In this document: positions 6,061 to 57,350 of the stretch, piece after piece
Layout: the number at the start of each line of letters is the position of its first letter
Position numbering within the stretch: position 1 is the stretch's first letter
DNA from: Lingula anatina
Lineage: Eukaryota; Animalia; Brachiopoda
Length of the DNA: 64,000 bases
Assembly: GCA_051362555.1 (NCBI GenBank)
Contig: CM120642.1
Span: forward strand, 23,250,001-23,314,000
Reading direction: 5' to 3'
Made by a program: the position numbers and the translations under genes
Notes under the pieces: model-generated
Told to the model about the DNA's origin: nothing
Seen by the model: only the letters and a program-made list of their open reading frames with translations
The model's database searches: none

Positions 6061-6068
6061 TATTTAAA
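6061..6068 (+). promoter_or_regulatory. TATA-like box of paralog 1
   Basis: TATTTAAA at the same position, downstream of AATGGGAGGAGCATTT, in all four paralogs (6061, 21811, 34361, 44564), ~115-125 nt before the conserved signal-peptide ATG. Confidence 0.6.
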
Positions 6069-11728: not shown

Positions 11729-11766
<38 letters not shown>

Positions 11767-13633: not shown

Positions 13634-13668
<35 letters not shown>

Positions 13669-14331: not shown

Positions 14332-14382
<51 letters not shown>

Positions 14383-18224: not shown

Positions 18225-20525
18225 AAACGCGTTACTGTGTAGTGTAGTTAGTCTCAAGTTACGCGTTGAAACTTGGCATGCCCTGTCAATCAGTCACGCA
18301 TTTTGCATAGAATTACAGAAAAGATGCGCCGTGGGATAAGTATCACTATAGCAGTTAGGGGTCAAAACACATAAGTTATTGTTTCATGTCCTGTCAATAA
18401 GTTATTCAACGTACAATGTAATACGACAATTCTGGTTGTCGATCCTTTACAGAAAAGTTTTACAGAGAAACTCAACGTGTCTGGAAACAAAGTTTAGAAG
18501 TATGTCAAAGAAGTTCAAACAGCTAGGACACGAGTTAAGCATACGTTCAGGGTTTAAAACAAGATAGTGATGATATAATCCAATTACTTAGCTAGACCTC
18601 TAATCGGCATTTCGATAAATGGAGATGGACCAGACGAAACATCCCTACTGTATCGTGTCCATGAATTAACATATCACTCGTTGGGCAGATCAAAACATCA
18701 CACGAGTTACCTTGTTTTATCAAATGTGCATGCATACCATTGAACAAAATTGAGCCTTGTTAATTTCACACATTTCACATATGCTATTTTTCCATGCCCT
18801 GTCAATCAGTCACGCATGTTGCACAGAATACAGAAAAGATTAACCATGGAATACGTATCGCTATATCAGTTAGCTACAGGTAGGTGTCAAGATACGACAA
18901 TTTTCTTGTTGATCTTTCACAGAATGTTTTACGGAGGAACTCAGCTTGTTTGGAAACAAAGTTTCAAAGAATGTCATAGAAGGTTAAACAGCCAGGGACC
19001 GAGTTAATCATACGTTCAGGGTTTAAGAAAAGATAGTCATGATAAAAAACCAATTAGTTACACCTCTAATCCCAATTTTTATAAACGGTGCTGGACCACA
19101 AGAAACATCCCTACTATATCATGTCCATGAACATATCACACGTCGGGCAATTAAAAAAAATCAAACGAGTTACCTTGTTTTATCAAATTTGCATTGAACA
19201 AGATGGGGCCTTGTTAATTTCACACATATATTTTACATATGCGAGGGTTACATCAGCAAGAAATCGTCTTTAAAAAGAAACGTGTTACCGTATTGTGTTG
19301 TTAGCCTCAAAACCCCGTACGATCTTGGCATGCCCTGTCAATCAGTCACGCATTTTACATAGAAATACAGGAAAAGATGAGCCGTGGAATAAGCATGACT
19401 ATATCAGTTAGGTGTCAAAATACATAAGTTATTGTTTCATGTCCTGTCAATAAGTCATCCACTCAATCGATGTAATACGACGATTTTGTTTGTAGATCCT
19501 TCACAGAAAAGTTTTACAGAGAAACTCAACGTGTCTGGAAGCAAAGTTTAGAAAAATGTCAAAGAAGGTCAAACAGGCCCGAGTTAACCATACGTGCAGG
19601 GTTTTAAAACATGACAGTCATGATATAATCCAATTACTTAGTTAGACCTCTAATCGCCATCTCGATAAATGTAGATGGGCCAGACGAAACATACCTGCTG
19701 TAAAGTGTCTATCACTCATTGGGCAATTAAAAACATCACACGAATTACCTTGTTATACGTAATACGACGATTTTGTATGTCGATCCTTCACAGAGAAGTT
19801 TTACAGAGAAACTTAACTTTTCTGGAAACAAACTTTAAAAGAATGTCAAAGAAGGTCAAACAGCCTGGGCCCGAGTTAATCATACCTCCAGGGTTTCAAA
19901 ACAAGAAAGTCATAATATAACCCAATTAGTTACACCTCTAATAGCCTCTTTTGTAAATGGAGCTGGACCAGACGAAACATCCCTACTATATCATGCCCAT
20001 GAACATATTACACTGGCCAATTCAAAACATCAAACGAGTTGCCTTGCTTTATCAAATTTGCATGCACACCATTGAACAACTTTTGTTAATTTCACACAAA
20101 CATTTTACGGAGAAACTTAACTTTACTGGAAACAAAAAGAACACGTTACCGTGTTATGTAGTTAGCCTAAAAATAAACAGTACCATTTTGCCATGCCCTG
20201 TCCATCAGTGACGCATGTTGCATAGGACAGAAAAGATGCACTGTGGAATAATTATCACTATATCAGATCTGAGTCAAAATACATAAGTAATTGTTTCATG
20301 TCCTGTCAATAAGTCATCCACTAAATCGATGTAATATGACGATTTTGTTTGTCAATCCTTCACAGAAAGGTTTTACAGAGAAACTCAACGTGTCTGGAAA
20401 CAAAGTTTAGAAAAATGTCAAAGAAGGTCAAACAGGCCCGAGTTAATCATACCTGCGGGATTTTAAAACAAGAAAGACATAATATAATCCAATTACTTAC
20501 TTAGACCTCTAATCGCCATTTTTGA
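18225..20525 (+). repeat. ~590-bp satellite array upstream of paralog 2 (about 5 diverged, partly deleted monomers)
   Basis: Recurrent CCCTGTCAATCAGTCACGCA (18281, 18797, 19333) and TTGTTTCATGTCCTGTCAATAAGT (18379, 19432, 20291). Confidence 0.9.
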
Positions 20526-21289
20526 AAACGCACTTAAGACTGAACAGTTAGCCGTGACAAAAACACCCGTGATGTTTTGCAATGATTTTCCAGACGACCA
20601 AACAACAATACAAAAATAACTGGGTTATGCATTTTGATTGTGGACTACCTCTAAAAATGCATATATGGGGTATTGATTTTATTCTCTATCAGGGTCACAA
20701 AGAGATTTTCGACTAGATATACACAATAAACATTTATTTCTCAGGCAAATTCTGTGCACAAAGCTGAATTGACTCATCACACATCTAGCCGGTGGTGGAG
20801 AGTAGATTAATTTGAGGTAAATTAAGCTGTCATTTAGGACTAAGCACTGTTTACTTACTTCAATTTTAGGACCAAATGCAGCACAAGCGTTTATTTATGT
20901 TAATTACCCAACTATGAGCAGAATGGTTGAACAGATTTTGCACGTTCCACTTACTTGTATGTAAATGGAATGTCGTGTAAGTTCCTTCACTTATTCGGCC
21001 TCGTCACTGTAATAAAACAAAATCCAATTCAGTTTTCTTTTTTTGCTTTGAATGTATTATAAACTACGTTTTGTTTTTTCTTTTTCATGTTCTTTTCTTT
21101 TTTATACTATGAAAAAGATGTGAAAATGTGTTACAATGTCACTCTGTAACACATGCTTCAGTTTAAAAAGAGAGAACTTTTGAAACTCTAGTCCTCCTTA
21201 AACTTTACACAAAACCATTGTGTTGGCCACCAGAGTACATATACATGCACATACCGGGGGTATTCATGTACATTAAAATGTATGTATAA

Positions 21290-21464
21290 GGCCTCATTCA
21301 GAATAGGGGATTAACCAGTCACAGGGTCAAATATGGCCGTCCCACTTGAATACTTCCCCACGGGGAATCAATTCAGTGTCTATTAGCGGATTAAACGGCA
21401 GGTTTTGTAGTGGGTCGCCATATTTGACCCTCAGACTAGTTAGTCCCCTATTCTGAATGGGGCC
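21290..21464. mobile_element. Tourist/Harbinger-like MITE in the upstream region of paralog 2
   Basis: TIR GGCCTCATTCAGAATAGGGGA / TCCCCTATTCTGAATGGGGCC, with further pairing GGGTCAAATATGGC / GCCATATTTGACCC. Confidence 0.8.
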
Positions 21465-21810
21465 TATCATGTATAACATTACATTTTAAATAAATGGGTT
21501 CGTACTTGGTTCTGGTTATGGTAAGATATTTCTTCTCGATAACTAGTAAGTTTTAGAACCCACCACAGTGGTGAACTGATCACATAGCACCTTCTTTACA
21601 AGGCAATAATTATGCTTATCAAGGACACAGATCAGTCCAATCACAATGCAACGTACAGTCGGTCAGGTGAGTCCTAGGGTTACATTGAAAGGGTTTTGTA
21701 ATCAAACTGATGTTTCTATTGGAAACAAAAGCGGAGTCATGGTCTTATTATGGGCAACACTAATAGGTTCTTACAAGAATAATGGGAGGAGCATTTCAAT
21801 TGCGAAGAAC

Positions 21811-21818
21811 TATTTAAA
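21811..21818 (+). promoter_or_regulatory. TATA-like box of paralog 2
   Basis: TATTTAAA conserved across paralogs. CCAAT at ~21637. Confidence 0.6.
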
Positions 21819-21935
21819 TCGCTATGGTGTTTGTAAAACGCACTGCATTGAAAGAGATTGAATTAAGTAAAACAAAGATAAAGGAGCTTTAAGGACATCT
21901 TAATGCTTTTGAATATTTCCAAGTCGGTTGTCACT

Positions 21936-23716
21936 ATGAACGATTCAAAGATCAGCAACGTTCTATTTCTTCTCGTCATCTCAGTGGTTATTTGGCAAGG
22001 CAGTGTTTTGGCAGCTGTTCCAGCGAACAAAACCGTCACCAACTTAACGTGCCCACACAACGCTACTTTGACGGTCCGTAATAAAACGCCATTGGATTCA
22101 AAACGAGAACAGGTTTCCACCAGCGCATATAACAGAAGAAGTGAAGAATATACTATAGCCACGACTCCACTGTTAGCTGACCAAGATAAGTCAACTGGAG
22201 GGAAGGCTTTCCCTTGGAATGCAACGACTGCCCTCCTCACACTTCAGGACGGCATTACACAGAATGGAAACGAAACCACATCATCACCACTAGATACAAA
22301 AGAACCAACCATTTTGTCAAACCCCTGGAACGGAACATCTTTTAATATAACTTCATCAAAAACCCTTTGTGCGACAGGGCCTTATAGATCTGACTTTATC
22401 CAGATATTTTGCTACTGCGACAGATTCTGCAACGTTTTTGAGGATTGCTGTGAGCCATACCACCCTTGCAACAGAAGTTCAACAAACGCTGAACACGTAG
22501 CGCTTTCTCATGAGATAGATATTCAACGAAATAATGTTGACTGCATGATCCATTCTCTTGACTCCAGATATTTGCGGGGTTCCAGCAGTAAATTCTATTG
22601 GATGGTAACGTCATGTCCAACCACATGGCTTAATGAAACAATACTAGAGAGATGTGAAAATCGCAGTTCTGCCGATGACATTGAACGCCATCTGCCCATA
22701 TCTGATCCTGCAACAAAACTGACATTTCGAAATAGGCACTGTGCAATGTGCCACAATTTTGAAAAATTCGAAAATTGGTCCCCTATCGTAACTTGCAACG
22801 AATTTGTGACCAGTATCGCGTTGAATATCAGTGCAATGACGAGCACAGCCGATGTATTGAAGGGTGTTAGGGAGAACAGCGGCTGCATGCTTTATTTCGA
22901 GCCACCAGCAACCATTCCTGGAAGACGCTGTTTTCCAGATGTGAAAGTCCATGGAAGAAAGTTTAACTGGATCAATGAAAATTACTGTCATCAAAACACT
23001 GACCCTAAGCATAAGGAGCTTTGCACCTCTGGGCCACCTTTGTTCACTTCTGTTATTTCATCAAGAGGACAAGAGTCTTACATGAGAAACGTATTCTGTT
23101 GGAGGTGTCTTTTTGGCAGTGATGTCACACTGAGGGTGGAGTCGTGTTCTTCAGATATGGGTATGTTCGTTTTTCTTATTTTTGTCTGTTTGTTTGTCTG
23201 TTTTGAAGAAACCATGAAAATAAAAATGTAAGACCCACTTCTTTCAAGCACAATGTCTGTAACAATATATATATGTTTATATATTATAATTAACGGCAGC
23301 AGCATCTATAATAATATTGCTAAATTTAATTTATTTGAAATCAGGGGTCAATGACTTTTCATTGCAGTGTTGATTAATCTATTATCGAAGACAGTGTCTT
23401 GAAGCCAAGAGGACAGCCAATGCTCTAGCTCTCTCTCCCTCTCTCGCAAATATAAACTTGGTGAAAATCCGACTATATTTTCGAACAGGTTTGATGGTCC
23501 AGTGATCTGACGGCCATTGAAATAGTGTAGATATGACTTTGTCACCCTGGTTAAACAAATGCTACATGTACATGTAAGACATTGATATGTACTATTATAT
23601 TGAAGGTGCTCCAAGGTCTTTTGATCCATCTGGGTTGGGTGCGCTGATTAATCCGTCATCAAACTCAGAGTCCTGTAGCAAAGAGGGCAGTCAGGTCAGT
23701 TAAGACCCCTCTCTCA

Positions 23717-23748
<32 letters not shown>

Positions 23749-24325
23749 AACTTAACCTTTAATATGCAATTATTTGTCAAATCGATTTTTTACCACTTTT
23801 CTGACTATATAACAAAGAAAACAAAGATTTCAATTGTGTTTTACTAACTTACTAACTTAATTATCTATTCACTATGATTGTGACAACATTTCTTTAACTC
23901 AATTCATCAAATTAAGCAAACAAAAGGCATGACTAATTCTAAGTCATACAACAGTCATTTGCAGCGTTATTTCGATATCCATATTTTCCAGATTATCATC
24001 TGTGCAATAGACGGAATGTACAATTTTTATGTGTTCTCCGCCAATGGCTTTTTTTTTTGGAGGGGGGGGGGGGGTAATGCCGTAAAAATTTGGTTGGGTG
24101 TTCTTGCCTTTGTAAATATTTTCTGTGATTGGTGAAACATTAGCTTTTAAGCGAGCCTTTTGTAATTTTGTCATTCACCATTCACACTTTCTATGTTCTC
24201 CCGATAGTGTAATTTCTCGTGATCCATTGAACAGTGCCCTTTATAATTGAGTTTCATTACTATTCATTACTATTCATTCATTTCTATTCATTTACATTTT
24301 TCATGTTTTAGAATAATAGTTAGTG

Positions 24326-24364
<39 letters not shown>

Positions 24365-25736
24365 TAAAACTTGAATATTCTAGAAGTTATTCATCTTTTA
24401 CTGTTAGCGAAGGTCGTATATGTAGATGTATTGACCTTGCGCTGATGACTCACGACAGTAATGATTTAGCCTGATAGACCAGAATAATGTTAATTCAAGG
24501 AATATACAGCTACTCAGTATTAGTAGATATAATGGTAATGTTAGTGAATTTCATGAAATTTTATAATGAGACAAAACGCGTCATCGCTATGTTTGTTTAT
24601 ACTTCCGACCACTAGATGGCCCATGACGAGGTGATATATACCGTTACTTTAATTTGATTCAATTGAATCAACGCTTAAAAATGTGTTTTAACTGTTAAAC
24701 TATAGAAAACTTCAAAGATAGTTTTAAAAACTTTAAAAAACAGAAGGCATTGTGAAGCCATTTACCCGTTCTTGTGTAGTATGCTCTTAAATCCTGTAAG
24801 TTTTTTATTTACCATGTTTTTCTAATTTCAGTTATGTGTTGATTTTAATCATTCTCGGCTATTCATGTGAATTATTGTGACAATATACTTAATGATTTTT
24901 GGTGTTTGACAAGGACACTTCAAACTTATTCAAATTAAAGTACATATGGGTTCATTTTAGGGATGAACATCAATAAACAACTGAATAAATAGCTATTTCA
25001 GTACGCCATGTTTAACTGTGAAAGTACTCTTTGAAGTCCTTATCTGTTATTATCACTTTATTTCTATTTATATTTAACAATGTGTATAATTTTGTTACAG
25101 GACATTTGTGGCGACGAAAGCAACCAATGCTTAAAACCAATTTTATCAATCTTCAATATGGATTTCCCTTTGAAACTGGTACTCAGTTCCGATGATCCTA
25201 TTAATATTTCGCAAGTTCGAGGAGTTTGTCGGGTTTTGAAAGGCCGTGTTGAAGATCTGTTCACAGTGCCTCCTCCCCCTACCCTCTCTGCCATACTGAG
25301 TACGAGATGGATGTTTCTGGATCACCGTTCCAGCCATTGTGCCGAGCTATCAGCTACTGACATTGATGGAGAATGGCACAATTCTAGTGTTCTAGCAGTA
25401 CTCACCAGACAGGTGAGACTGAAGGAAGAGATAAAATATTATCGAGAAGGCCTTGAAATGTTTGAATCTTTTCGAGATGAACTTGACATAGAGCTGCGTA
25501 CGAATACCATGCTTATTTCGCTTGGCAATGTTGATTATCAAATAAATGTTCTCCGCGATGTAATAAATCTTTGCGCCAATGTGGAGAAACCTCTTGAATC
25601 CAATGTTGAAACAACGACAAAAGATACACATGGACATTCCATGGTTTCTGGTGGTAATCATTTTTTTCATTGGGCATTTGCAATGTGTGCTTTTGGTGTC
25701 TTTGTGAGCATGGGCGTGTTTGCTCCAAGTGGTTGA
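21936..25736 (+). CDS. SMB-like Cys-rich cell-surface glycoprotein, paralog 2 (~649 aa; exons 21936-23160, 23606-23694, 25101-25736)
   Basis: Same architecture and intron phases as paralog 1. 89-nt exon 2 (GAPRSFDPSGLGALINPSSNSESCSKEGSQ) with a weak AAG acceptor. Tail HWAFAMCAFGVFVSMGVFAPSG. Confidence 0.85.
24329..24363. repeat. (GT)n microsatellite in intron 2 of paralog 2
   Basis: Read directly. Confidence 0.9.
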
Positions 25737-28700: not shown

Positions 28701-29549
28701 ATGTTTATCTTCTATTGGACAGTAGGACCCTCGGTTTCAGATTAAGTGAATTATACAGTAGTGTCTGAATTTGGGGGGGGGGGGGGGGGATTCTGTGTTT
28801 CGTGTAAGCTGTCATGAAATGTAGGGTCCGGAAGTCCATGCACGTATCAATTTACTGGTTTCTGAAATAACGGGTCCTGGACTCCGACATGGGGAACCTT
28901 GATACATGATTTGAACTCTGAAAGCTTCACGTTGTGCACGGGTCGGATGAGAGCATTTCATGATCATTATTCGTGCACTTAAGATTTAGTTTATATTAAG
29001 CCATCTACTCACTGCCAATTAAATCGTTTTGCTAAATTTATCTAATTTTCAATTTTATTACTGACCATTATCAACTGAGGGTCCCTCTCCGTTAGTCGAC
29101 ACCAGCCACCATCATCGGTATAACAAATAATTAATTGTTATCAAGTACACCACTGCATACTGTGGCGGATTTGGGGGGGGGGGGGTCCTGTTCGCCCCCT
29201 TAAATGCCAAAAAATTTTCGGGGCCCTTCAGCAGGCCCCGAACCCCACGCCAAGTGCGGGGGGGAAGGGGGAGTCGGCTTCGCATCCGCGCCCACCCCCC
29301 TTCAAATAATATGCTAATTATAAGTCTCAAATTTAAGGAGACTTATCCCTGCTTGTTTCTTGTAATACACTTAATTTTGTTTTCTTCTAGTAGTTAGAGA
29401 GTCTTCAATTGTAAAATATTTCTCTGCTCAATAAAATTATAATTATAATTATTATTGTTATTATTATTATTATTGTGCACCAACAAAGCGTCACTAAAAG
29501 TTCGGAAATATTTCTTCATAATGACTCTCATTCAGTGAGGCTTGTACAT

Positions 29550-32500
29550 GTAAATGGAGATGGACCGGACGAAGCATCCCTACTGTATCATGTCCATAAA
29601 CATACCACTCGTTGGGCAATTCTAAATATCAAACGTGTTGCCTTGCTTTATCAAATGTGAATGCGTACCATTGAATAAAATTGAACAACTTAATTTCACA
29701 CATACATGTTACATATGCGAGGGTTACATCAGCCCGAAAATCTTTACAAAAACGCATTACCGTGTTGCGTAGTTAGCCTTAAAAACCTCGAAATATTTTG
29801 CCATGAAACTGTCAATCAGTCACGCATTTCGCACAGAAATACAGAAAAGATGAGCCGTGTAATAATCATCACTGTATCAGATAGGGGTCAAGATACATAA
29901 GTTATTGTTTCATGTCCTGTCAATAAGTCATCCACTCAATCGATGTAATACGACGATTTTGTTTGTTGATCCTCACAGAAAATTTTACAGAGAAACCCAA
30001 CGTGTCTGGAAACAAAGTTTAGAAGAATGTCAAAGAAGGTCAAACAGGCCCGAGTTAATCATACTTTCAGGGTTTTAAAACAAGTTAGTCATTATATAAT
30101 ATAATTACTTAGTTAGACCTCTATTGCCATTTTGGTAAATGGAGATGGGCCAGACGAAACATCCCTAGTATATCATGTTCATGAACATATCACTCGTTGG
30201 GCAATTCAAAACATCAAACGCGTTACCTTGTTTTATCAAATGTGAATGCACACCATTAAACGAGATTGGGCCTTGTGAATTTCACACATACATTTTACAT
30301 ATACGAGGGTTACATCAGCGCGAAAATCTTTTTAAAAAACGCGTTACCGTGTTGTGTAGTTAGCCTAAAAAAAAAAAAACCCTTACGAATTTGCAATGCC
30401 CTGTCAATCAGTCACGCATTTCGCATAGAAATACAGAAAAGACGAGCTTTGGATTAAGTTTCACTATATCAGTTAGGTGTCAAGATGTACAAGCTATTGT
30501 TTCATGTCCTGTCAATAAGTCATCCATTCAATCGATGTAATACGACGATTTTGTTTGTCGATCCTTCACAGAAAATTTTACAGAGAAACTCAACGTGTCT
30601 GGAAACAAAGTTTAGAAGAATGTCAAAGGAGGTCAAACAGGCCCGAGTTAATCATACTTTCAGGGTTTTAAAACAAGTAAGTCATTATATAATATAATTA
30701 CTTAGTTAGACCTCTATTGCCATTTTTGATAAATGGAGATGGGCCAGACGAAACATCCCTACTATATCATGTTTATGAACATATCACTCGTTGGGCAATT
30801 CAAAACATCAAACGCGTTACCTTGTTTTATCAAATCTGAATGCACACCATTAAACGAGATTGGGCCTTGTGAATTTCACACATACATTTTACATATACGA
30901 AGGTTACATCAGCGCGAAAATCTTCTTTTAAAACAACGCATTACCGTGTTGTGTAGTTAGCCTCCAAAAAACCCTTACGAATTTGCAATGCCCTGTCAAT
31001 CAGTCACGCATTTCGCATAGAAATACAGAAAAGACGAGCTTTGGATTAAGTTTCACTATATCAGTTAGGTGTCAAGATATACAAGCTATTGTTTCATGTC
31101 CTGTCAATAAGTCATCCATTCAATCGATGTAATACGACGATTTTGTTTGTCGATCCTTCACAGAAAATTTTACAGAGAAACTCAACGTGTCTGGAAACAA
31201 AGTTTAGAAGAATGTCAAAGGAGGTCAAACAGGCCCGAGTTAATCATACTTTCAGGGTTTTAAAACAAGTAAGTCATTATATAATATAATTACTTAGTTA
31301 GACCTCTATTGCCATTTTTGGTAAATGGAGATGGGCCAGACGAAACATCCCTACTATATCATGTTTATGAACATATCACTCGTTGGGCAATTCAAAACAT
31401 CAAACGCGTTACCTTGTTTTATAAAATCTGAATGCACACCATTAAACGAGATTGGGCCTTGTGAATTTCACACATACATTTTACATATACGAAGGTTACA
31501 TCAGCGCGAAAATCTTCTTTTAAAACAACGCATTACCGTGTTGTGTAGTTAGCCTCCAAAAAACCCTTACGAATTTGCAATGCCCTGTCAATCAGTCACG
31601 CATTTCGCATAGAAATACAGAAAAGACGAGCTTTGGATTAAGTTTCACTATATCAGTTAGGTGTCAAGATATACAAGCTATTGTTTCATGTCCTGTCAAT
31701 AAGTCATCCATTCAATCGATGTAATACGATTTTATTTGTCGATCCTTCACAGAAAATTTTAGAGAAAAACTCAACGTGTCTGGAAACAAAGTTTAGAAGA
31801 ATGTCAAAGAAGGTCAAACAGGCCCGAGTTAATCATACTTTCAGGGTTTTAAAACAAGTAAGTCGTTATATAATATAATTACTTAGTTAGACCTCTATTG
31901 CCATTTTGGTAAATGGAGATGGGCCAGACGAAACATCCCTAGTATATCATGTTCATGAACATACCACTCGTTGGGCGATTCAAAACATCAAACACGTTAC
32001 CTTGTTTTATCAAATGTGAATGCACACCATTAAACGAGATTGGGCCTTGTGAATTTCACACATACATTTTACATATACGAAGGTTACATCAGCTCGAAAA
32101 TCTTCTTTTAAAAAAACGCGTTACCGTGTTGTGTAGTTAGCCTCCAAAAAACCCTTACGAATTTGCAATGCCCTGTCAATCAGTCACGCATTTCGCATAG
32201 AAATACAGAAAAGACGAGCTTTGGATTAAGTTTCACTATATCAGTTAGGTGTCAAGATATACAAGCTATTGTTTCTTGTCCTGTCAATAAGTCATCCATT
32301 CAATCGATGTAATACAATTTTATTTGTCGATCCTTCACAGAATATTTTACAGAGAAACTCAACGTGTCTGGAAACAAAGTTTAGATGAATGTCAAAGGAG
32401 GTCAAACAGGCCCGAGTTTATCATGCTTTCAGGGTTTTAAAACAGGAAAGTCATGATATAATCCAATTACTTAGTTAGACCCAAACGACATTTTGATAAA

Positions 32501-33810
32501 TTGAGATGGGCCAGACGAAACATCCCTACTGTATAGTGTCCATGAACATATCACTCGTAGGACAATTCAAAACATCACATGAGTTACCTTTGTTTATCAA
32601 ATTTGAATACACACCTTTGAACAAGATTGAACAAGTCAATTTCAAACATACATTTAGCATGTACGAGGATTACGTCAGCGCGAAAGTCTTCTTTAAAAAA
32701 ACGCGTTACCGTGTTGTGTAGGTAGCCTAAAAAACCCACACGATCTTGCTATGCCCTGTCAATCAGTCACGCATTTCGCACAAAAATACAGAAAAGATGA
32801 GCCGTGGAATAATCATCACTATATCAGTTAGGGGTCAAGATACGTAAGTTATTGTTTCATGTCCTGTCAATAAGTCATCCACTCAATCGATGTAATACGA
32901 CGATTTTGTTTGTCGATCCTTCACAGAAAATTTTACAGAGAAACCCAACGTGTCTGGAAACAAAGTTTAGAAGAATGTCAAAGAAGGTCAAACAGTCCCG
33001 AGTTAATCATACTTTCAGGGTTTTAAAACAAGTAAGTCATTATATAATATAATTACTTAGTTAGACCTCTATTGCCATTTTGGTAAATGGAGATGGGCCA
33101 GACGAAACATCCCTACTATATCATGTTTATGAACATATCACTAGTCGGGCAATTCAAAACATCAAACGCGTTACCTTGTTTTATCAAATGTGAATGCACA
33201 CCATTAAACGAGATTGGGCCTAGTAAATTTCACACATACATTTTACATATATGAGGGTTACACCAGCGCGAAAATCTTTTTAAAAAAACGCGTTACCGTG
33301 TTGTGTAGTTAGCCTAAAAAAACCCTTACGAATTTGCAATGCCCTGTCAATCAGTCACGCATTTCGCATAGAAATACAGAAAAGACGAGCTTTGGATTAA
33401 GTTTCACTATATCAGTTAGGTGTCAAGATATACAAGCTATTGTTTCATGTCCTGTCAATAAGTCATCCATTCAATCGATGTAATACGATTTTATTTGTCG
33501 ATCCTTCACAGAAAATTTTACAGAGAAACCCAACGTGTCTGGAAACAAAGTTTAGATGAATGTCAAAGGAGGTCAAACAGGCCCGAGTTAATCATACCTT
33601 AAGGGTTTTAAAACAAGAAAGTCATGATATAATCCAATTACTTAGTTAGACCTCTAATCGCCATTTCAATAAATGTAGATGACCAGACGTCCATGAACAT
33701 ATCACTCGTTGGGCAACTCAAAACATCAAACGCGTTACCTTGTTTTATCAAATGTGCGTGCACTCCACTGAACGAAATTGAGCCTTGTTAATTTCACACA
33801 TACATTTTAT
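29550..33810 (+). repeat. ~590-bp satellite array upstream of paralog 3 (~7.3 monomers)
   Basis: Monomer starts (AAAT[G/T]GAGATGG) at ~29552, 30138, 30731, 31323, 31911, 32498, 33085, and partial at 33671. Confidence 0.95.
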
Positions 33811-34360
33811 GTTTCCTTTAGTAAAAACGTGACCTTTCAAGCTGTGCTTGTCACAACTGATATATCCAAGAAGGATCCCTAAAATTTGGAGGAGTAAGGC
33901 TTTTTTTTGCTTCTCCAAGCCAAAATGGTATTTCAGAGAGGTTGGAATAGAATGAATGGTGTAAACCCTTTACCTACTTTGGGCTGTACAGGGGTAGGAA
34001 AGCTACGGCAGTTATGTAAGAGTGCCTGGAATCTTCCCGATCCCGTACTTGGGTTCGTACTTGGTTCTGGTGATGGTAAGATATTACTTCTCGAAGTAAG
34101 TTTAAGAACCCGCCACAGTGGTGAACTGATCACATAGCACCTTCTTTACAAGGCAATAATTATGCTTATCAAGGGCACAGATCAGTCCAATCACAATGCA
34201 ACAAAGAGTCGGTCAGGTGAGTCCAAGGGTTACGATGAAATGGTTTTGTAATCAAACTGATGTTTCTATTGGAGACAAAAGCAAAGTCATTGTCTTATGA
34301 TGGACAGCACTAATAGGTTCTGATAAGAACAATGGGAGGAGCATTTCAGTTGCAAATAAC

Positions 34361-34368
34361 TATTTAAA
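34361..34368 (+). promoter_or_regulatory. TATA-like box of paralog 3
   Basis: TATTTAAA conserved across paralogs. Confidence 0.6.
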
Positions 34369-34484
34369 GCGCTATGGTATTTGTAAAACGCACTGCATTG
34401 AAAATTATTGGATTAAGTAAAACAAAGGTAAAGGAGCTTGGAGGCATCTTTATGCTTTTGAATATTTCCAAGTCGGTTGTCAAT

Positions 34485-36098
34485 ATGGATGATACAAAGA
34501 TCAGCAATGTTCTATTTGTTCTCGTCATCTCAATGATGGTTTGGCAAGGCACTGTTTTGGCAGCTGTTCCAGCGAACAAAACCGTCACGAACTTAACCTA
34601 CCCACATGAGGCTACTATGACTGTCCCTTATAAAACGCCATTGGATTCAAAACGAGAACAGGTTTCCACCAGCGCATATAACAGAAGAGTTGAAGAATAT
34701 ACTATAGCCACGACTCCACTGTTTACTGACCAAGATAAGTCAACTGGAGGGAAGGCTTTCCCTTGGAACGCAACAACTGCCCTCCTCACACTTCATGATG
34801 GCATTGCACAGAATGGGGATGAAACCACATCATCACCACTGGATACAAAAGAACCAACCATTTTGTCAAACCCTTGGAACGGAACATCGTTTAATATAAC
34901 TTCATCAAAAACCTTTTGTGCGACAGGGCCCTATGGATCTGACTTTATTCAGATATTTTGCTACTGCGACGGATTTTGCAACATTTTTGAGGACTGCTGT
35001 GAGCCATACCACCCTTGCGAACATGATGAACACCTAGCGTTTTCTTACGAAATAGATATTCGACGAAATGATGTTGACTGCATAATGCATTCTCTGGACT
35101 CCAGATCTTTGCCTGGTTCCAGCAACAATTTCTACTGGATGGTAATCTCTTGTCCAACCACATTGCTAAATGAAACAATACGAGACAGATGTGAAAATCG
35201 CAGTGCTACCGATGACATTGAGCGCCATCTTCCCGTTTCTGACCCCGCAACAAAACTGACATTTCGAAATAGGTACTGTGCAATGTGCCACAATTTTGAT
35301 AAATACGATAATTGGTCCCCTATCGTAACTTGCGACAAGTTTGTGACAAGTAGCGCAATGAATATCAATGGAATGATGCACACAGCCGATGTACTGAAGG
35401 TTGTTAGGGAGAACAGTGATTGCATACTTTATTTCGAGCCACCGGCAACTATTCCAGGAAGACGGTGTTTCCCACATGGGGAAGCCCATGGAAACAAGTG
35501 GCTTAATGAAAATGATTGTGACCAAAACGCTGACCCTACATATAGGGAACTTTGCTCTTCTGGTCCACAGTTGTTTACCAAATCAATTTCAGCAAGAGGA
35601 CAAGTGTTTTACTTGAGGAACGTATTTTGTTGGAAGTGCCTGTATAGCAGCGACGAAAGACTGAGGGTTGAGCCGTGTCCTTCAAATATGGGTTTGTTTT
35701 TCTGTCTAACCCTTGTCTGATAGTATATTTGCCTGTTTGAATGATGCCAAAAATATTTTTTCATAATAAAAATAATAATATATTCTCAACCGCTACTGGA
35801 AGTGACGAAATGTTTATTATGCCAAATGGGAAGCCAAGGACTCTCCTGTAAAGTTAAAATTGGTGAAAACCCCGAATATTATTTCAGAATAGATTACATG
35901 TGCCAGTGAAATGTTTAACTGACATCACAACCAATCACTGTATGTAATACACCGTTTTTGTATTACGATTTTATCGTTCTTTATTTGTAGGTGCTGTAAG
36001 GTCCTTTGATCCATCTGGTTTAGGTATGCTGATTAATCCATCATCAAATACAGAGTCCTGTAGACATAAGGCTAGTCAGGTCAGTTATCACAAGCATG

Positions 36099-36130
<32 letters not shown>

Positions 36131-38143
36131 GATAGTTTAGTACTTGGCGGGGATCATAGAACTTATAAAGAGGAGGTTATGTAGCATATATATTACAAGT
36201 AAGGTTGAAATCTCTAGCCCCATTTCTTCTGATGTTCAATTTCACTTAACACAAATTTCTGCACCTCCCTGTGTTGTGCTTACTTTATAAAAGTGGTTTA
36301 TATCTCCTCAGGAACAAGCAAAAATCTAGTGGGTTTAAAATGATTTCAGGGAAAGTATGGTTATCAAAGAAACGGTTTTCAAGTTATTAAGAGAGGGGTA
36401 AATGGCGTAAAATTTTGGTTGGCTGTTCTTAATGCCTTTGTAAATATTTCCTGTGATTGGTGAAACATTAGCGCTTACGCGAGCCTTTGTAATTTTGTCC
36501 TTCACCATTCACACTTTCTATGTTATCCCGATAATGTGTTTTAATTTTTCTTGATCCATTAAACTGTGCCCTTCATTAAGGCAAATTAGAGAGAACTTTT
36601 CTTGGTTTTTTCTTCATGCAAAAAAAATAAATAAATAAATAAAAAAAATAATAATAAATAAAAAATAGATGCTGAAAAGTGCCCCCTCAATTAGGCAAAT
36701 AATTGAAATAACTTTTTCTTGGTCTTATTTTTGAGTAGATATGCCAATAAACGGCCTTACAATTTGTTTTTTCAATGAAGACTTACATATTCTAGAAGTT
36801 ATTAACTTTTACTGTTAGCGAGTCTTATCGTATGTTTACATCGGCACTGATAACACACGACAGTAATTATATAGCCTGATAGTTCTGCAAAATGTAAATT
36901 CAAGGAATATACATCTGCACAGTAGTAGTAGAGATAATAGTAATGTAACTGAATTTCGTGAAAGTTTATAAGGAGACATAACGCATCATTGCATTGTTTG
37001 TTTATAGTACTGTCGATCGCTATATGACCCATGACGATTTGATATCTACCGTTACTTAAACCTGATTCGATTGTTTCAACTCTAAATTATGCATTTTTAT
37101 TGTTTAATTACATAAAACTTCAAATATGGTTTTGAAAAACTTTAAATATTTTGGTACCTTTGTTAAGTCATTTACTCGTTCTTATATAGTATGATTCAAA
37201 TCCTGTGAGATTTTTATTTACCATGTTTTCTAATTTCAGTAATATGGTGACTTAAATCAATATCTCTGTTATTCATAAGGATCATTATGACAATTAACTT
37301 AATGATATTTAATGTTTGACAGGACACCTATTTAAATTAAATTACAGATGGGTTCATTTAAGGGGTGAACAAGCATCGATAAATCATTGAATAAATAGCT
37401 ATTTCACTACGCCATTCCATGTTTAACTGTGAGAGTGCTTTCTCTAAAGTCCTTATCGGTTAATAACACTATATTTATAATTAGTAATGTGTATTATTCT
37501 GTTACAGGACATCTGTGCCGACGAAAGCGACCAATGCTCAACACCAATATTATCAATCTTCAATATGGATTTCCCTGTGGAACTGGCACTCAGTGCCGAT
37601 GGTCCTCTTAATATTTCGCAAGTTCGTGGAGTTTGTCGGTTTTTGAGAAGCGATATTTATGAGCGTTTCACAATTTCTCCTCCACCATCCCTCTCTGCCA
37701 TACTGAGTATGAGATGGAAGTTCTTGAATCCCCATTTCAGCCACTGTGCCGTACAATCAGCTAATGACACTGACGAAGAATGGCACAATTCTAGCGTTCT
37801 AGCAGTACTCACCAGTCAGGTGAGACTGAAGGAAGAGATCAAGAATTATCGAGAAGGCCTTAAAATGTTTGAATCTTTTCGAGATGAACTTGACATAGAG
37901 CTGCGTACGAATACCATGTTTATTTCGTTTGGCAGTGTTAATTATCAAATTACTGTTCTCCGCGATGTGATAAATCCTTGCGCCAATGTGGAGAAACCTC
38001 TTGAATCCAATGTTGAAACAACGACAAAAGATGCACATGGAAATTCCATGGTTTCTGGTGGTAATCATTTTTGTCATTGGGCATTTGCAATGTGTGCTTT
38101 TGGTGTCTTTGTGGGCATGGGCGCGTTTGCTCCAAGTGGCTGA
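34485..38143 (+). CDS. SMB-like Cys-rich cell-surface glycoprotein, paralog 3 (~643 aa; exons 34485-35691, 35991-36079, 37508-38143)
   Basis: Same exon structure and phases. CYCDGFCNIFEDCC. Exon 2 GAVRSFDPSGLGMLINPSSNTESCRHKASQ. Hydrophobic C-terminal tail after SGG. Confidence 0.87.
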
Positions 38144-39293
38144 AAATTTGCAATTAATTACGCATTGCAGATTTCGGCAGACGTGCGCTTTGTCAACGAT
38201 GACCGAATTGCCTACTAGTTTGCTGTTGTTCAGCACTACATTACATGAACTTTGCAATTTGTCATCCAACTTAATATGTGTTCCCACACATGATGTTGTG
38301 GCAGAAGTAACAAAAGACTGCGCCTTTGATGTCGAACCAAAAATTAAAAAGGTGATTAAAAAGTGCACCTTTTTTTAATTTAGTGCACTGAACTTTTGAG
38401 ATAATTGAAATTATTGCATAAATATCATTGATTTTCTCCTGTCTACTTCTTGGTGAAATGTTGGTGTTTGATAATGTAGGGATTAGGAACAACCACGTGA
38501 TATAATAGAACCGTAGATCTGACAGAATCTTTACTAAGTTTCAAACAAGTTAAAAAGTTATGATGTTTATTTTTGCCTATGAAAGCACCCACTGTTGGCA
38601 CAAAAAGTTACATGGATGGAATGAATTAATAAAGCATACAGTCAGAACAAATCATTTTATTCTGTCTTTTTTTGCTTTAATCTGCGATAGTTGAGCAATA
38701 TTTACATAATTTAATACCGAGATACTTTAGAAATATGTGCATTAGTTCCTTAATGAGGAAAGAGAGGGGACTTCCATGTCTGAAAAATAATCAATGATAT
38801 AAATAATGATTATGACAAGTAAGATCTTTTGAATATACTGTTTGAAGAGCTTCCGTGATTATCAGAATTGAAACACTTTCCTTCAGAATCGATTCAAATT
38901 TATATTGCTTCAGATGTAGGGTTGTAGGTCCGATTAATCGAGGATCGCTAAACTTTGCAGTCTGTACCGTTTAATTTTTATCATAATTTATAAAGAATTG
39001 AAATATGCAGACATCAAGATGCTAATACACAATAATGTGTTCACCCTCACATTAAATGTGCTACGTAATAAATGGACATGTATGCCATTCTAAATCGCTG
39101 TGATATGAACTAAATTTCATCAAACCTTTATCACTGTTTGAGACTTAATGTGGGTACGGATAGTATTGTTACTTTTAAACCAAAAAGGCACTTATTAATC
39201 CTTTGGAAACGAAACATGCGGATTCTACATGTACATGCCGGGCCCATTCCAGTGGCATACTTTAGGAGGGCGCTGTTCATAAAACCATTCATT

Positions 39294-39337
<44 letters not shown>

Positions 39338-41395
39338 TCATATTACTGACGTGGATCACATTTCAACGCCCAAGTCATAAAATTGTTAAATAGCGCTGAT
39401 AACTGCAATTTCCCCTAAGTAGGTCAATTGCCTGTATAACAAGGGAAAAATCACCTACGATTATCGATTTTGTGTCTGGACGGTTTGGGGGGGGACGCAG
39501 AAAAGAAAATTACAAGATGCAAGCAAAATATTTGGGACTTTTGGAACTACTGAAAAGCAGAGTATATTGAAAACTTTCAAATGGCGAAAAACCGTTCAAC
39601 TTCTCCAGTTTTGCACCTTTAAACTATGCAGGCATCTTGGAAATATCTATATTTTGCCTGGCTGTTGCAGACCGCGTTAACTGTTTTGATGTAGAGAAAT
39701 GCGGGTTATGAACCAGCAAACTAGTGTTAAAGGAACAATGGACAGGGTTGACGGATGAAGGGGGGAGGGGTTTACTCCCATCACTTTTCTAGTCACGTCA
39801 GTCTTTAGATCTGTATGCGTGGTGGTGGTGGTGGTGGTGCCGGGGACGCCCATTATGCCGCCTGAATATATACATGTACATATGGGAATAAGTCATGGAA
39901 TTTAATATTCTAACAGCTGAAATATTTAAAACACCACGAGAAAAGGATTTTATTGAACTTTCCCTTGAATATATTCTTTATATGCTATTATATTTATGTA
40001 TTATACGGTAATTACAGCAAATGAAATGAAAAAAAGCTCCAGCAAAACTAGATAAATGTCCAGTCTTGAAGAAGAAATTCTCCACCCAACCCAAACCCCA
40101 TTCTTTGCCCCTTTCTATGAGTTTTTCTGTCATTCAAATCAAAGAGATACATTTGTAATGTTTATTTCTTTGTTAAAATAGACAGTATTCAAGAGAGCAC
40201 AACGTCCTACAGTCAAAACGATATCGACGTACCAGCAAGGAAAGCAGATGTTGTAAAGCACTGGCCAGTCATTAAGAACAAAATTATTATATCAAAGATT
40301 GGATAAAATATCGATTCCTTATACAGGGAGCAATTATTCGTTTAGATTATCTTTGAATAACACAAATTTAAAGATTATTTATTATTCAACACTTGCGTTA
40401 TAGTAACATCCTTATCGTATCTGTCAGTAGTAAAAAGATCTTTAAAGCAACGCAAATTGCTAAAACAGTGCAACACCGGCAATACTACAATATCAGCTGA
40501 TGTCGCTGACACGTTTTTTGGGCGGAAGCTGGCGATAGGAAAGGAGAATATCCTTCTCTTACTTTTACTTCTTTAGAGCATGTCTCGCGACGGGATCCAC
40601 AAGGTCATCGTTCATGTGTACCAAAATCTAGAGAAAAAATGGCCGAAAATAAGTCTGACACGAAAAATCTATAAACAAAGTCATAAAAATTGGACACAAG
40701 TAGGACTCAAACACAAAATTTACACGTCATGAAGACCATACCTCATATTTGTCTTAATTATGGGTCTCGCTGTCCACGACACCACCATGTCGCTGTGCCA
40801 ACAACTCACATTTTTGTCTTATATATTCGTCAACACCAAATACTGTATATACAATGAATTTAATGTTTATCTTCTATTGGACAGTAGGACCCTCGGTTTC
40901 AGATTGAGTGAATTATACAGTAGTGTCTGAATTTGGGGGGGGGGGATTCTGTGTTTCGTGTAAGCTGTCATGAAATGTAGGGTCCGGAAGACCCTGCGCG
41001 TATCAATTTACTGGTTTCTGAAATAACGGGTCCTGGACTCCGACATGGGGAACCTTGATACATGACTTGAACTCTGAAAGCTTCACGTTGTGCACGGTCG
41101 GCTGAGAGCATTTCATGATCATTATTCGTGCACTTATGATTTAGTTTATATTAAGCCATCTACTCACTGCCAATTAAATCGTTTCGCTAAATTTATCTAA
41201 TTTTCAATTTTATTACTGACCATTATCAACTGAGGGTCCCTCTCCGTTAGTCGACACTAGCCACCATCATCGGTATAACAAATAATTCATTGTTATCAAG
41301 TACACCACTGCATACTGTGGCGGATGTGTGTGTGGGGGGTCCTGTTCGCCCCCTTCAATGCCAAAAAATTGTAAAATATTTGTCTGCTCATTAAA

Positions 41396-41433
<38 letters not shown>

Positions 41434-41504
41434 GCACCAACAAAGCATCACTAAAAGTTCGGAAATATTTCTTCATAACGACTCTCATTCAGTAAGGCTT
41501 GTAC

Positions 41505-44010
41505 ATATAAATTGAGATGGACTGGACGAAGCATCCCTACTGTATCATGTCCATGAACATACCACTCGTTGGGCAATTCAAAATATCAAACGCGTTGCCT
41601 TGTTTTATCAAATGTGAGTGCATACCATTGAACAAAATTGAGCCTTGTTAATTTCACACATAAATTTTACATATACGAGGGTTACATCAGCTCGAAAATC
41701 TTCTTTTAAAAAACGCGTTACCGTGTTGTGTAGTTAGCCTCAAGAAAACCCTTACGAATTTGCAATGCCCTGTCAATCAGTCACGCATTTCGAATAGAAA
41801 TACAGAAAAGACGAGCTTTGGATTAAGTTTCACTATATCAGTTAGGTGTCAAGATATACAAGCTATTGTTTCATGTCCTGTCAATAAGTCATCCATTCAA
41901 TCGATGTAATACAATTTTATTTTTCGATCCTTCACAGAAAATTTTACAGAGAAACTCAACGTGTCTGGAAACAAAGTTTAGGAGAATGTCAAAGAAGGTC
42001 AAACAGGCCCGAGTTAATCATGCTTTCAGGGTTTTAAAACAAGAAAGTCATGATATAATCCAATTACTTAGTTAGACCTCTGTTGCCATTTTGGTAAATG
42101 GAGATGGGCCAGACGAAACATCCCTACTATATCATGTTTATGAACATATCACTCGTTGGGCAATTCAAAACATCAAACGTGTTACCTTGTTTTATCAAAT
42201 GTGAATACACACCTTTGAACAAGATTGAACAAGTTAATTTCAAACATACATTTAACATGTACGAGGATTACGTCAGCGCGAAAGTCTTCTTTAAAAAAAA
42301 ACGCGTTGCCGTGTGGTGTAGGTAGCCTAAAAAACCCACACGATCTTGCCATGCCCTGTCAATCAGTCACGCATTTCCCACAGAAATACAGAAAAGATGA
42401 GCCGTGGAATAATCATCACTATATCAGTTAGGGGTCAAGATACGTAAGTTATTGTTTCATGTCCTGTCAATAAGTCATCCACTCAATCGATGTAATACGA
42501 CGATTTTGTTTGTCGATCCTTCACAGAAAATTTTACAGAGAAACCCAACATGTCTGGAAACAAAGTTTAGAAGAATGTCAAAGAAGGTCAAACAGGGCCG
42601 AGTTAATCATACTTTCAGGGTTTTAAAACAAGTAAGTCATTATATAATATAATTACTTAGTTAGACCTCTATTGCCATTTTGGTAAATGGAGATGGGCCA
42701 GACGAAGCATCCCTACTATATCATGTTCATGAACATATCACTCGTTGGGCAATTCAAAACATCAAACGCGTTACCTTGTTTTATCAAATGTGAATGTACA
42801 CCATTAAACGAGATTGGGCCTTGTGAATTTCACACATACATTTTACATATACGAGGGTTACATCAGCGCGAAAATGTTCTTTTAAAAAAACGCGTTGCCG
42901 TGTTGTGTAGTTAGCCTCAAAAAACCCTTACGAATTGGCAATGCCCTGTCAATCAGTCACGCATTTCGCATAGAAATACAGAAAAGACGAGCTTTGGATT
43001 AAGTTTCACTATATCAGTTAGGGGTCAAGATACGTAAGTTATTGTTTCATGTCCTGTCAATAAGTCATCCATTCAATCGATGTAATACGACGATTTTGTT
43101 TGTCGATCCTTCACAGAAAATTTTACAGAGAAACCCAACGTGTCTGGAAACAAAGTTTAGAAGAATGTCAAAGAAGGTCAAACAGGGCCGAGTTAATCAT
43201 ACTTTCAGGGTTTTAAAACAAGTAAGTCATTATATAATATAATATAATTACTTAGTTAGACCTCTATTGCCATTTTGATGAATGGAGATGGGCCAGACGA
43301 AACATCCCTACTATATCATGTTCATGAACATATCACTCGTTGGGCAATTCTAAACATCAAACGCGTTACCTTGTTTTATCAAATGTGAATGTACACCATT
43401 AAACGAGATTGGGCCTTGTGAATTTCACACATACATTTTACATATACGAGGGTTACATCAGCGCGAAAATGTTCTTTTAAAAAAACGCGTTACCGTGTTG
43501 TGTAGTTAGCCTCAAAAAACCCTTACGAATTTGCAATGCCCTGTCAATCAGTCACGCATTTCGCATAGAAATACAGAAAAGACGAGCTTTGGATTAAGTT
43601 TCACTATATCAGTTAGGTGACAAGATATACAAGCTATTGTTTCATGTCCTGTCAATAAGTCATCCATTCAATCGATGTAATACGATTTTATTTGTCGATC
43701 CTTCACAGAAAATTTTACAGAGAAACTCAACGTGTCTGGAAACAAAGTTTAGAAGAATGTCAAAGGAGGTCAAACAGGCCCGAGTTATTCATACCTTAAG
43801 GGTTTTAAAAACAAGAAAGTCATGATATAATCCAATTACTTAGTTAGACCTCTAATCGCCATTTCAATAAATGTAGATGACCAGACGTCCATGAACATAT
43901 CACTCGTTGGGCAACTCAAAACATCAAACGCGTTACCTTGTTTTATCAAATGTGCGTGCACACCACTGAACGAAATTGAGCCTTGTTAATTTCACACATA
44001 CATTTTATGT
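41505..44010 (+). repeat. ~590-bp satellite array upstream of paralog 4 (~4.3 monomers)
   Basis: Monomer starts at ~41509, 42096, 42685, 43280, and partial at 43869. Confidence 0.95.
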
Positions 44011-44563: not shown

Positions 44564-44571
44564 TATTTAAA
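44564..44571 (+). promoter_or_regulatory. TATA-like box of paralog 4
   Basis: TATTTAAA conserved across paralogs. Confidence 0.6.
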
Positions 44572-46301: not shown

Positions 46302-46333
<32 letters not shown>

Positions 46334-46838
46334 GATAGTTTAGTACTTGGCGGGGATCATAGAACTTATAAAGAGGAGGTTATGTAGCATATATATTACA
46401 AGTAAGGTTGAAATCTCTAGCCCCATTTCTTCTGATGTTCAATTTCACTTAACACAAATTTCTGCACCTCCCTGTGTTGTGCTTACTTTATAAAAGTGGT
46501 TTATATCTCCTCAGGAACAAGCAAAAATCTAGTGGGTTTAAAATGATTTCAGGGAAAGTATGGTTATCAAAGAAACGGTTTTCAAGTTATTAAGAGAGGG
46601 GTAAATGGCGTAAAATTTTGGTTGGCTGTTCTTAATGCCTTTGTAAATATTTCCTGTGATTGGTGAAACATTAGCGCTTACGCGAGCCTTTGTAATTTTG
46701 TCCTTTACCATTCACACTTTCTATGTTATCCCGATAATGTGTTTTAATTTTTCTTGATCCATTAAACTGTGCCCTTCATTAAGGCAAATTAGAGAGAACA
46801 TTTCTTGGTTTTTTCTTCATGCAAAAAAAAAAAATAAA

Positions 46839-46869
<31 letters not shown>

Positions 46870-57318: not shown

Positions 57319-57350
<32 letters not shown>

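What the first reader, a model, noticed from the sequence alone, without database searches (positions are those of the whole stretch)
18225..44010. Each paralog lies behind its own copy-number-variable array of one ~590-bp repeat
Seen: the same monomer, in the same orientation, ends 0.55-1.6 kb upstream of each TATA box. It is degenerate at 2750-4480, ~5 units at 18225-20525, ~7.3 at 29550-33810 and ~4.3 at 41505-44010, and I found it nowhere else in the window. Units A and B differ mainly in monomer number. Inference: gene + array is the unit of evolution. The array may be a multimerised cis-regulatory module that tunes paralog expression, and/or the substrate for the unequal crossovers that build the cluster.
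Basis: partly seen in the sequence, partly recalled or inferred. Interest (0 to 1): 0.8.

Follow-up and report, generated by a model that had tools for sequence, protein, structure and literature searches.

The report
Private repeat array before each paralog
Four tandem copies of an invertebrate gene for a predicted cell-surface protein each sit 0.55-1.4 kb behind an array of the same 590-780-base repeat; the repeat appears rare elsewhere in the genome but changes about as fast as the introns, so it is likely upstream DNA copied along with the gene rather than a control dial.

Summary
Four paralogs (644-650 aa; the ectodomain resembles somatomedin-B adhesion GPCRs, without the 7TM part) each follow a same-strand array: 7.2 and 4.2 monomers (III, IV), 3.9 monomer-lengths of deleted units (II), and a decayed array with a ~780-bp unit (I). 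It is not a common satellite. DNA contig depth suggests very roughly 13-36 copies against 15.4 in the window. Four RNA runs put no read on it but 1027-1488 reads on the stretch, nearly all on a dispersed MITE beside it. HINE ends are absent. The functional reading is unsupported: monomers diverge about as fast as introns and synonymous sites, no block is significantly conserved once row sets are fixed, and the PBX/PREP decamer in 14 monomers lacks its CCAAT partner and is lost from array I. The one mappable gene-duplicating crossover (III/IV) lies 3' of the gene, about 2.6 kb from the nearest array. The genes were essentially silent in six RNA runs, so expression tuning is untested. Best reading: a locus-specific long-unit VNTR, co-duplicated with the gene and turning over by exchange inside arrays. 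The scan holds no look-alike sequence; similar gene-front arrays were noted in other genomes.

The parts
2687..4695 (+). Array I: decayed, three box-1 anchors (2762, 3558, 4324), ~780-bp unit; includes a younger 87% tandem duplication (2987-3708 / 3714-4479)
6061..6068 (+). TATA-like TATTTAAA of paralog I (function not shown)
6176..15343 (+). Paralog I, predicted coding exons 6176-7391, 11935-12023, 14702-15343 (648 aa)
   Evidence: GT-AG junctions and open frame, no RNA support
17927..18220 (+). Left flank of array II, homologous to the left flank of array I (2253-2401 and about 2565-2690)
18221..20529 (+). Array II: five partial or deleted units, 3.9 monomer-lengths, 76-89% alike
21289..21465 (.). 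Dispersed MITE-like element (49-nt inverted arms) in the spacer of paralog II; positive control for a dispersed repeat
21811..21818 (+). TATA-like TATTTAAA of paralog II; CCAAT at -174 and ATTGG at -93 from it
21936..25736 (+). Paralog II, predicted coding exons 21936-23160, 23606-23694, 25101-25736 (649 aa)
29436..29474 (.). (ATT)n microsatellite 75 bp left of array III (copy at 41396-41433 left of array IV)
29550..33810 (+). Array III: 7.2 monomers of 583-592 bp; 7 exact TGATTGACAG on the - strand
34361..34368 (+). TATA-like TATTTAAA of paralog III
34485..38143 (+). Paralog III, predicted coding exons 34485-35691, 35991-36079, 37508-38143 (643 aa)
38700..38930 (.). Zone where unit III switches from IV-like to II-like alleles: inferred crossover of the youngest duplication
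41508..44008 (+). Array IV: 4.2 monomers; 4 exact TGATTGACAG on the - strand
44564..44571 (+). TATA-like TATTTAAA of paralog IV
44688..48320 (+). Paralog IV, predicted coding exons 44688-45894, 46194-46282, 47685-48320; coding sequence 99.69% identical to III

Best explanation
The repeat is a low-copy, long-unit tandem array that likely arose from upstream non-coding DNA of the ancestral gene, was likely copied with each gene duplication, and likely persists as a near-neutral passenger whose copy number drifts by unequal exchange within arrays. Shown: the position, orientation and monomer counts, mosaic monomers, divergence at about the intron rate, and an allele switch 3' of gene III. Inferred: a tandem state older than the I/II split; a later change of unit from ~780 to ~590 bp; decay of arrays I and II once they were short or diverged; and gene duplication by crossover between the genes' own homologous 3' flanks rather than between arrays.
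For: Low copy: contig depth on the monomer is 1713-1844 (X1) and 1279-2645 (X3) in the two full monomer bins, against 72-95 for long divergent-paralog contigs. That gives 13-36 copies, against 15.4 monomer-lengths in arrays II-IV. All 11 listed loose ends on the monomer read as further monomer-type sequence by eye (145 rows not shown). Not dispersed in transcripts: depth 0 on 19950-20666 in 4 of 4 RNA runs, while the MITE beside it reaches 67-137. Neutral-like rate: I_1 against the longer II-IV monomers is 67-77%, against 71-85% for alignable intron pieces and 76-79% at synonymous sites. II against III is 77-90% (mean 85), against 76-91% for intron pieces (plus a 25-nt 100% hit) and 80% synonymous. 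No conserved block with fixed row sets: p 0.27, 0.33 and 0.15 in 3 of 4 tests, and 0.035 in the fourth for an 8-mer. Old tandem state: I_1 against I_2 is 68.8% in the half not recently duplicated, below I_1 against II/III at 76-81%. Mosaic monomers. Crossover outside the array: of 96 informative sites in the bins up to 38799, 90 are III=IV and 2 are III=II; of 75 from 38800 on, 47 are III=II and 14 III=IV. Other local tandem duplications occur in the same window.
Against: All four paralogs keep monomer sequence in front of them although much other non-coding DNA no longer aligns, and a probable fifth copy has it too. The unit appears to have been amplified with two different lengths. A perfect PBX/PREP decamer stands in 14 of 18 box-1 copies. 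Parsimony changes cluster along the monomer (p 0.004-0.04), though mosaic monomers and gaps can cause that. CpG is not depleted in the arrays (o/e 0.83-1.04 against 0.30 in the neighbouring gene body). The step from 97% to 99% identity between units III and IV falls at array III/IV, so some exchange boundary does lie in the array. The copy estimate uses summed contig depth, which the tool says is no copy number, and it misses relatives under 82% identity.
Confidence: 0.58

Rival explanations
1. The monomer is an upstream enhancer module with TALE-class (PBX/PREP/MEIS) sites; multimerising it raises or times expression, so array length tunes each paralog, as for maize b1 or wheat TaALMT1.
For: Fixed position and orientation before 4 of 4 genes. 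Low copy, like the b1 repeat. Exact TGATTGACAG 14 times in the arrays, 15 in the window, chance mean 0.31 (the copies are not independent and the motif was picked after the fact). The motif is the TALE DECA site in zebrafish. A second TGACAG box lies 108 bp away. CpG is not depleted.
Against: No conservation beyond chance with fixed rows. The decamer has 6 parsimony changes, and 24% of 10-column windows have as few. It is absent from all 3 copies in array I and from the gene-proximal copy of array II. A CCAAT or ATTGG lies within 60 bp of only 1 of 14 array decamers, whereas the paper gives ~20 bp average spacing. No expression was seen to tune.
Confidence: 0.27
2. The arrays are the recombination substrate that builds the cluster: misaligned arrays cross over and duplicate or delete array-plus-gene units.
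For: Monomers of III and IV are 83-99% alike and mosaic. The identity step between units III and IV falls at the array. Array II ends near monomer position 336 and array III begins near 331.
Against: The mappable switch for the III/IV duplication is at about 38700-38930, about 2.6 kb before array IV and 4.9 kb after array III. The genes' 3' flanks offer 95-97% identity over several kb without any array. Flanks differ between I/II and III/IV on both sides.
Confidence: 0.07
3. The arrays are the internal repeats of an old non-autonomous Helentron (HINE) or similar element that inserted upstream of the ancestral gene and has lost its ends.
For: An (ATT)n microsatellite lies about 75 bp left of arrays III and IV, and a weak hairpin about 20 bp right of the end of array III (-7.1 kcal/mol for 96 nt). 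Both are HINE features in oyster.
Against: No 11-nt subterminal inverted repeat at one mismatch is shared by III and IV. The flank shared by I and II has no microsatellite. Copy number is low and no dispersed reads were seen. The dominant oyster monomers are 140-180 bp.
Confidence: 0.08

Closest known systems
Maize b1 hepta-repeat (853-bp unit; PMC3798267, passages read)
   Same: A locus-unique array of long units upstream of a gene, varying in copy number.
   Different: b1 lies ~100 kb upstream of one gene and has shown enhancer and paramutation activity with transcription. Here the array lies 0.55-1.4 kb before each of four paralogs, no transcript was seen and no function is shown.
Wheat TaALMT1 promoter repeats and sorghum SbMATE MITE repeats (review PMC6480313, passages read)
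   Same: Promoter-near tandem repeats whose number varies.
   Different: There repeat number is associated with expression among alleles of one gene, and SbMATE repeats are MITE-derived with known binding factors. Here no expression link was testable.
Sea urchin SpTransformer clusters (PMC8634487, passages read)
   Same: A tandem family in a marine invertebrate whose members each carry repeats in the flank.
   Different: SpTrf repeats are GA/GAT short tandem repeats proposed to mark duplication edges. Here the unit is 590-780 bp and the mapped crossover lies outside it.
Oyster Cg_HINE satellite-like arrays (PMC7492417, passages read)
   Same: Short arrays of about 4-5 long monomers with a microsatellite on the left.
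   Different: The largest HINE clusters hold hundreds to over a thousand arrays each, mostly 140-180-bp monomers with subterminal inverted repeats; none of this is met here.
Somatomedin-B adhesion/secretin-class GPCR ectodomains; Lingula anatina XP_013391996.1 (for the genes)
   Same: Exon 1 matches the N-terminal part of proteins of which 18 of 20 tested carry 7tm_2 and 11 of 20 Somatomedin_B (chosen mostly for length). The Lingula protein aligns over residues 111-602 at 25% identity, E 4e-46.
   Different: The window's proteins and the Lingula protein lack the 7TM part and end in one hydrophobic stretch (predicted anchor, type not tested). Pfam itself gives no hit on the window's exons.

Membership tests
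Locus-specific long-unit VNTR | Head-to-tail monomers in one orientation | tested here: met
Locus-specific long-unit VNTR | Confined to one locus or family, low genome copy | tested here: inconclusive
Locus-specific long-unit VNTR | Copy number differs between copies, with exchange among monomers | tested here: met
   7.2, 4.2 and 3.9 monomer-lengths; mosaic monomers. Variation between individuals was not measured.
Multimerised enhancer (b1 / TaALMT1 type) | Enhancer activity that scales with copy number | not testable with these tools
   no chromatin or reporter data; genes silent in 6 of 6 RNA runs laid
Multimerised enhancer (b1 / TaALMT1 type) | Motif blocks conserved above background | tested here: not met
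   p 0.15-0.33 in 3 of 4 fixed-row tests, 0.035 in one; an earlier p 0.005 came from columns with missing rows; low power
TALE/NF-Y element (DECA + CCAAT) | TGATTGACAG decamer | tested here: met
   14 of 18 box-1 copies
TALE/NF-Y element (DECA + CCAAT) | CCAAT box close to the decamer (~20 bp average in PMC6023610) | tested here: not met
   1 of 14 array decamers has CCAAT or ATTGG within 60 bp
Helentron HINE internal repeats | Subterminal inverted repeats left and right of the array | tested here: not met
   no 11-mer pair at one mismatch shared by III and IV; one shared pair at two mismatches, AT-rich
Helentron HINE internal repeats | Microsatellite in left flank and palindrome in right flank | tested here: inconclusive
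   (ATT)n left of III and IV and a weak hairpin right of III; no microsatellite beside I or II
Helentron HINE internal repeats | Many dispersed copies | tested here: not met
Tandem non-coding RNA gene array (snRNA, 5S, tRNA) | Family match, stable fold or transcript | tested here: not met
   Rfam 0 at gathering score, best E 3.9; no tRNA; fold z +0.60; the runs are mostly poly(A)-selected, so small RNAs could be missed

The most novel reading that the evidence does not exclude
Each member of an undescribed family of 7TM-less adhesion-receptor ectodomains carries its own naturally multimerised TALE-site enhancer, amplified twice with different unit lengths, whose copy number sets paralog expression in a tissue or stage not sampled here: a copy-number dial built into the duplication unit of an animal gene family.
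Probability: 0.15. Interest if true: 0.65.

Novelty: new member of a known kind. Interest (0 to 1): 0.3.

Why it matters
If neutral, it is a clean small case of upstream DNA amplifying, riding along with gene duplications and decaying, and a ready length marker for each paralog. If the array is an enhancer, the cluster is a natural allelic series (about 3, 4, 7 and 4 units) with two nearly identical genes, III and IV, that differ mainly in monomer number, which would test directly whether tandem copy number tunes paralog expression in an animal. My evidence leans to the first case.

Tried and rejected
Whole-genome search: no genome is held. Tandem Repeats Finder misses the array because its longest period is 500. 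Non-coding RNA gene array: rejected. A likeness of one monomer stretch to the snRNA proximal sequence element is recalled only and was not tested. Metagenome scan with a 20-mer: 1 locus (L001), a 27-nt chance match in 49% GC DNA with no profile hit. Word-index protein searches with exon 1: no hit among 2323 and 486 candidates; the profile-library search then found 428 relatives. The run search listed no RNA holder, which is no evidence; RNA runs were added by species label. Conserved-block signal: p 0.005 vanished when the same rows were required at every column. The sigma-70 scan is irrelevant to an animal. Splice-junction 'mirage' origin: a GTAAGT donor-like word occurs in only some III/IV monomers and no monomer resembles the genes' exons, so it was rejected. 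Whether III and IV are two loci or two haplotypes joined in assembly was not settled. Literature: no paper holds 'Lingula', 'tandem repeat' and 'satellite DNA' together. The 4 papers holding the decamer and 'tandem repeat' are unrelated by title and abstract. The library lacks most subscription papers, and no supplements were read.
Full report
Setting. The window is AT-rich animal DNA with spliced genes. Earlier scan notes on other pieces of this genome call it the brachiopod Lingula (unchecked AI notes). The nearest named homolog of the genes here is a Lingula anatina protein, which fits but does not prove it. No whole genome was held, so genome-wide statements rest on read data.

The genes. 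Four paralogs lie on the + strand, each with three predicted coding exons, GT-AG introns and an open frame of 643-649 residues. Coding identity is 84-88% among I, II and III, and 99.69% between III and IV. dN/dS is 0.48-0.57 for the older pairs. Pfam finds nothing on the exons. A search of 1.84 billion representatives gave 428 relatives at E up to 0.001. Of 20 that I scanned, chosen mostly for length, 18 carry 7tm_2 and 11 Somatomedin_B. The best hit lacks 7TM and aligns over residues 111-602. The proteins are therefore predicted secreted, C-terminally anchored ectodomains related to somatomedin-B adhesion GPCRs, a class described in amphioxus (PMC2246102, passages). Their function is unknown to me.

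The observation. A monomer profile hits four places only, all on the + strand: 2687-4695, 18221-20529, 29550-33810 and 41508-44008. They end 1366, 1282, 551 and 556 bp before a TATTTAAA word. Arrays III and IV hold 7.2 and 4.2 monomers of 583-595 bp. Array II holds five partial units. Array I has a longer unit of ~780 bp, because it repeats ~190 bp that in array II is only left flank.

Is it a common repeat? Likely not. With one monomer plus gene III as target at 82% likeness, contig depth in the two full monomer bins was 1713-1844 (X1) and 1279-2645 (X3), against 72-95 for long contigs of divergent paralogs. That gives 13-36 copies against 15.4 monomer-lengths in arrays II-IV. Summed contig depth is not a copy number and overlaps inflate it, so this is an order of magnitude only. 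A second, independent sign comes from RNA. In 4 of 4 runs the end of array II had depth 0, while the MITE 770 bp away drew depth 67-137 with many different flanks. HINE ends as described for oyster (PMC7492417, passages) are not met: a microsatellite left of III and IV and a weak hairpin are present, but shared subterminal inverted repeats are not. It is not an RNA gene array by Rfam, ARAGORN or folding.

History. In the half of array I that escaped its recent internal duplication, I_1 and I_2 are 68.8% alike, less than I_1 against II/III (76-81%). A tandem state therefore likely predates the I/II split. Within-array identity does not exceed between-array identity for II (83.4 against 84.8 with III) or for III and IV (90.5 and 90.8 against 91.5), so the arrays have not been homogenised separately. 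Monomers of IV switch their nearest III neighbour along their length, the expected trace of unequal exchange or conversion inside arrays (inference). Several read contigs fit neither I, II nor IV. Two exon-3 pieces show 43 and 35 differences from III, where II predicts 16 and 14 and I predicts 57 and 47. One array end with the III-type right flank shows 17 and 18 differences, where IV predicts 3 and 1. A fifth paralog with its own monomer is thus likely; its linkage is not shown.

Does the array build the cluster? For the youngest event the answer appears to be no. In a three-way alignment of the 3' regions, unit III sides with IV at 90 of 96 informative sites in the bins up to 38799 and with II at 47 of 75 from 38800 on. 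The crossover is inferred at about 38700-38930, in 3' flank that is 95-97% alike between units. Against this, the step from 97% to 99% identity between units III and IV lies at the array, so an allelic crossover or conversion boundary may sit there. III and IV could also be two haplotypes joined in assembly: Lingula heterozygosity is given as 1.6% (PMC4595640, passages). One X1 contig over 38706-39099 has 5 differences and no gap against III, where II predicts 8 plus 10 gap columns and IV 9 plus 2. That favours a real III-like mosaic only weakly. I put a real duplication at about 70%.

Is it regulatory? The monomer carries TGATTGACAG on the - strand in 14 of 18 box-1 copies, the TALE DECA motif of PMC6023610 (passages), and a second TGACAG box 108 bp on. 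But the copies share one origin, I picked the motif after the fact, and it is lost in all of array I and in the gene-proximal unit of II. Only 1 of 14 has a CCAAT within 60 bp, and 24% of 10-column windows are as conserved. Parsimony changes do cluster along the monomer (p 0.004-0.04), but with the same rows at every column the longest invariant run is unremarkable in 3 of 4 tests. Overall divergence matches introns and synonymous sites. CpG evidence is mixed: no depletion (o/e about 1 against 0.30 in the neighbouring gene), yet 21 of 42 CpG positions against 53 of 174 other C/G positions show a transition variant. In 6 of 6 RNA runs laid, of 9 listed, from three studies, gene-body depth stayed under 1. 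Neither the start site nor any tuning could be examined, and the tissues are unknown to me.

Comparison. It is built like the maize b1 repeat, which is locus-unique with an 853-bp unit (PMC3798267, passages), and like TaALMT1 and SbMATE promoter repeats (PMC6480313, passages), but their defining feature, activity that follows copy number, is untested here. It differs from SpTransformer clusters, where short repeats are proposed to mark duplication edges (PMC8634487, passages). I found no paper on this repeat in the held library and no look-alike in the scan. Earlier notes report widespread local tandem duplication elsewhere in this genome, and this window has other examples, which raises the prior for a passenger.

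Verdict. A real, undescribed, probably family-confined long-unit VNTR. Passenger 0.58, enhancer array 0.27, eroded transposon 0.08, cluster-building substrate 0.07. Interest 0.3.

Noticed in passing
window 20529 and 29550: Array II ends near monomer position 336 and array III begins near position 331, as if one array had been split by the 9-kb stretch holding gene II. The spacer shared by genes I and II argues for coincidence, but it is unexplained.
   Followed up: partly
runs X1 and X3 laid on window 33485-38067: Contigs that fit none of paralogs I, II and IV, including an array end with the III-type right flank, point to at least one more paralog outside the window.
   Followed up: partly
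window 52642-62050: Neighbouring gene with a lysine-rich exon holding a 294-bp in-frame tandem repeat (2.7 copies, 52751-53555) and a Myb-like exon at 57357-57500; a TTF1-like identity is recalled, not tested. CpG o/e 0.30 suggests gene-body methylation.
   Followed up: partly
window 21289-21465: MITE-like element with 49-nt inverted arms about 350 bp before the TATA-like word of paralog II, abundant in RNA reads with many flanks. Related-looking palindromic elements lie at 1605-1883, 54331-54519 and 61055-61159.
   Followed up: partly
window 9023-10059 (-): Two reading frames in intron 1 of paralog I that look like a broken Tc1/mariner-type transposase (family recalled, not searched).
   Followed up: no
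window 58775-59233: 146-bp tandem repeat, 3.2 copies, of the length typical of oyster HINE arrays.
   Followed up: no
window 13988-14496: Inverted-repeat element (126-bp arms, 86.5%) enclosing a TTTA microsatellite in intron 2 of paralog I.
   Followed up: no
window exon 1 of paralogs I, II, III: The first part of exon 1 is 94-95% alike among paralogs while the later part is 85-90%, which may reflect gene conversion or uneven constraint.
   Followed up: no
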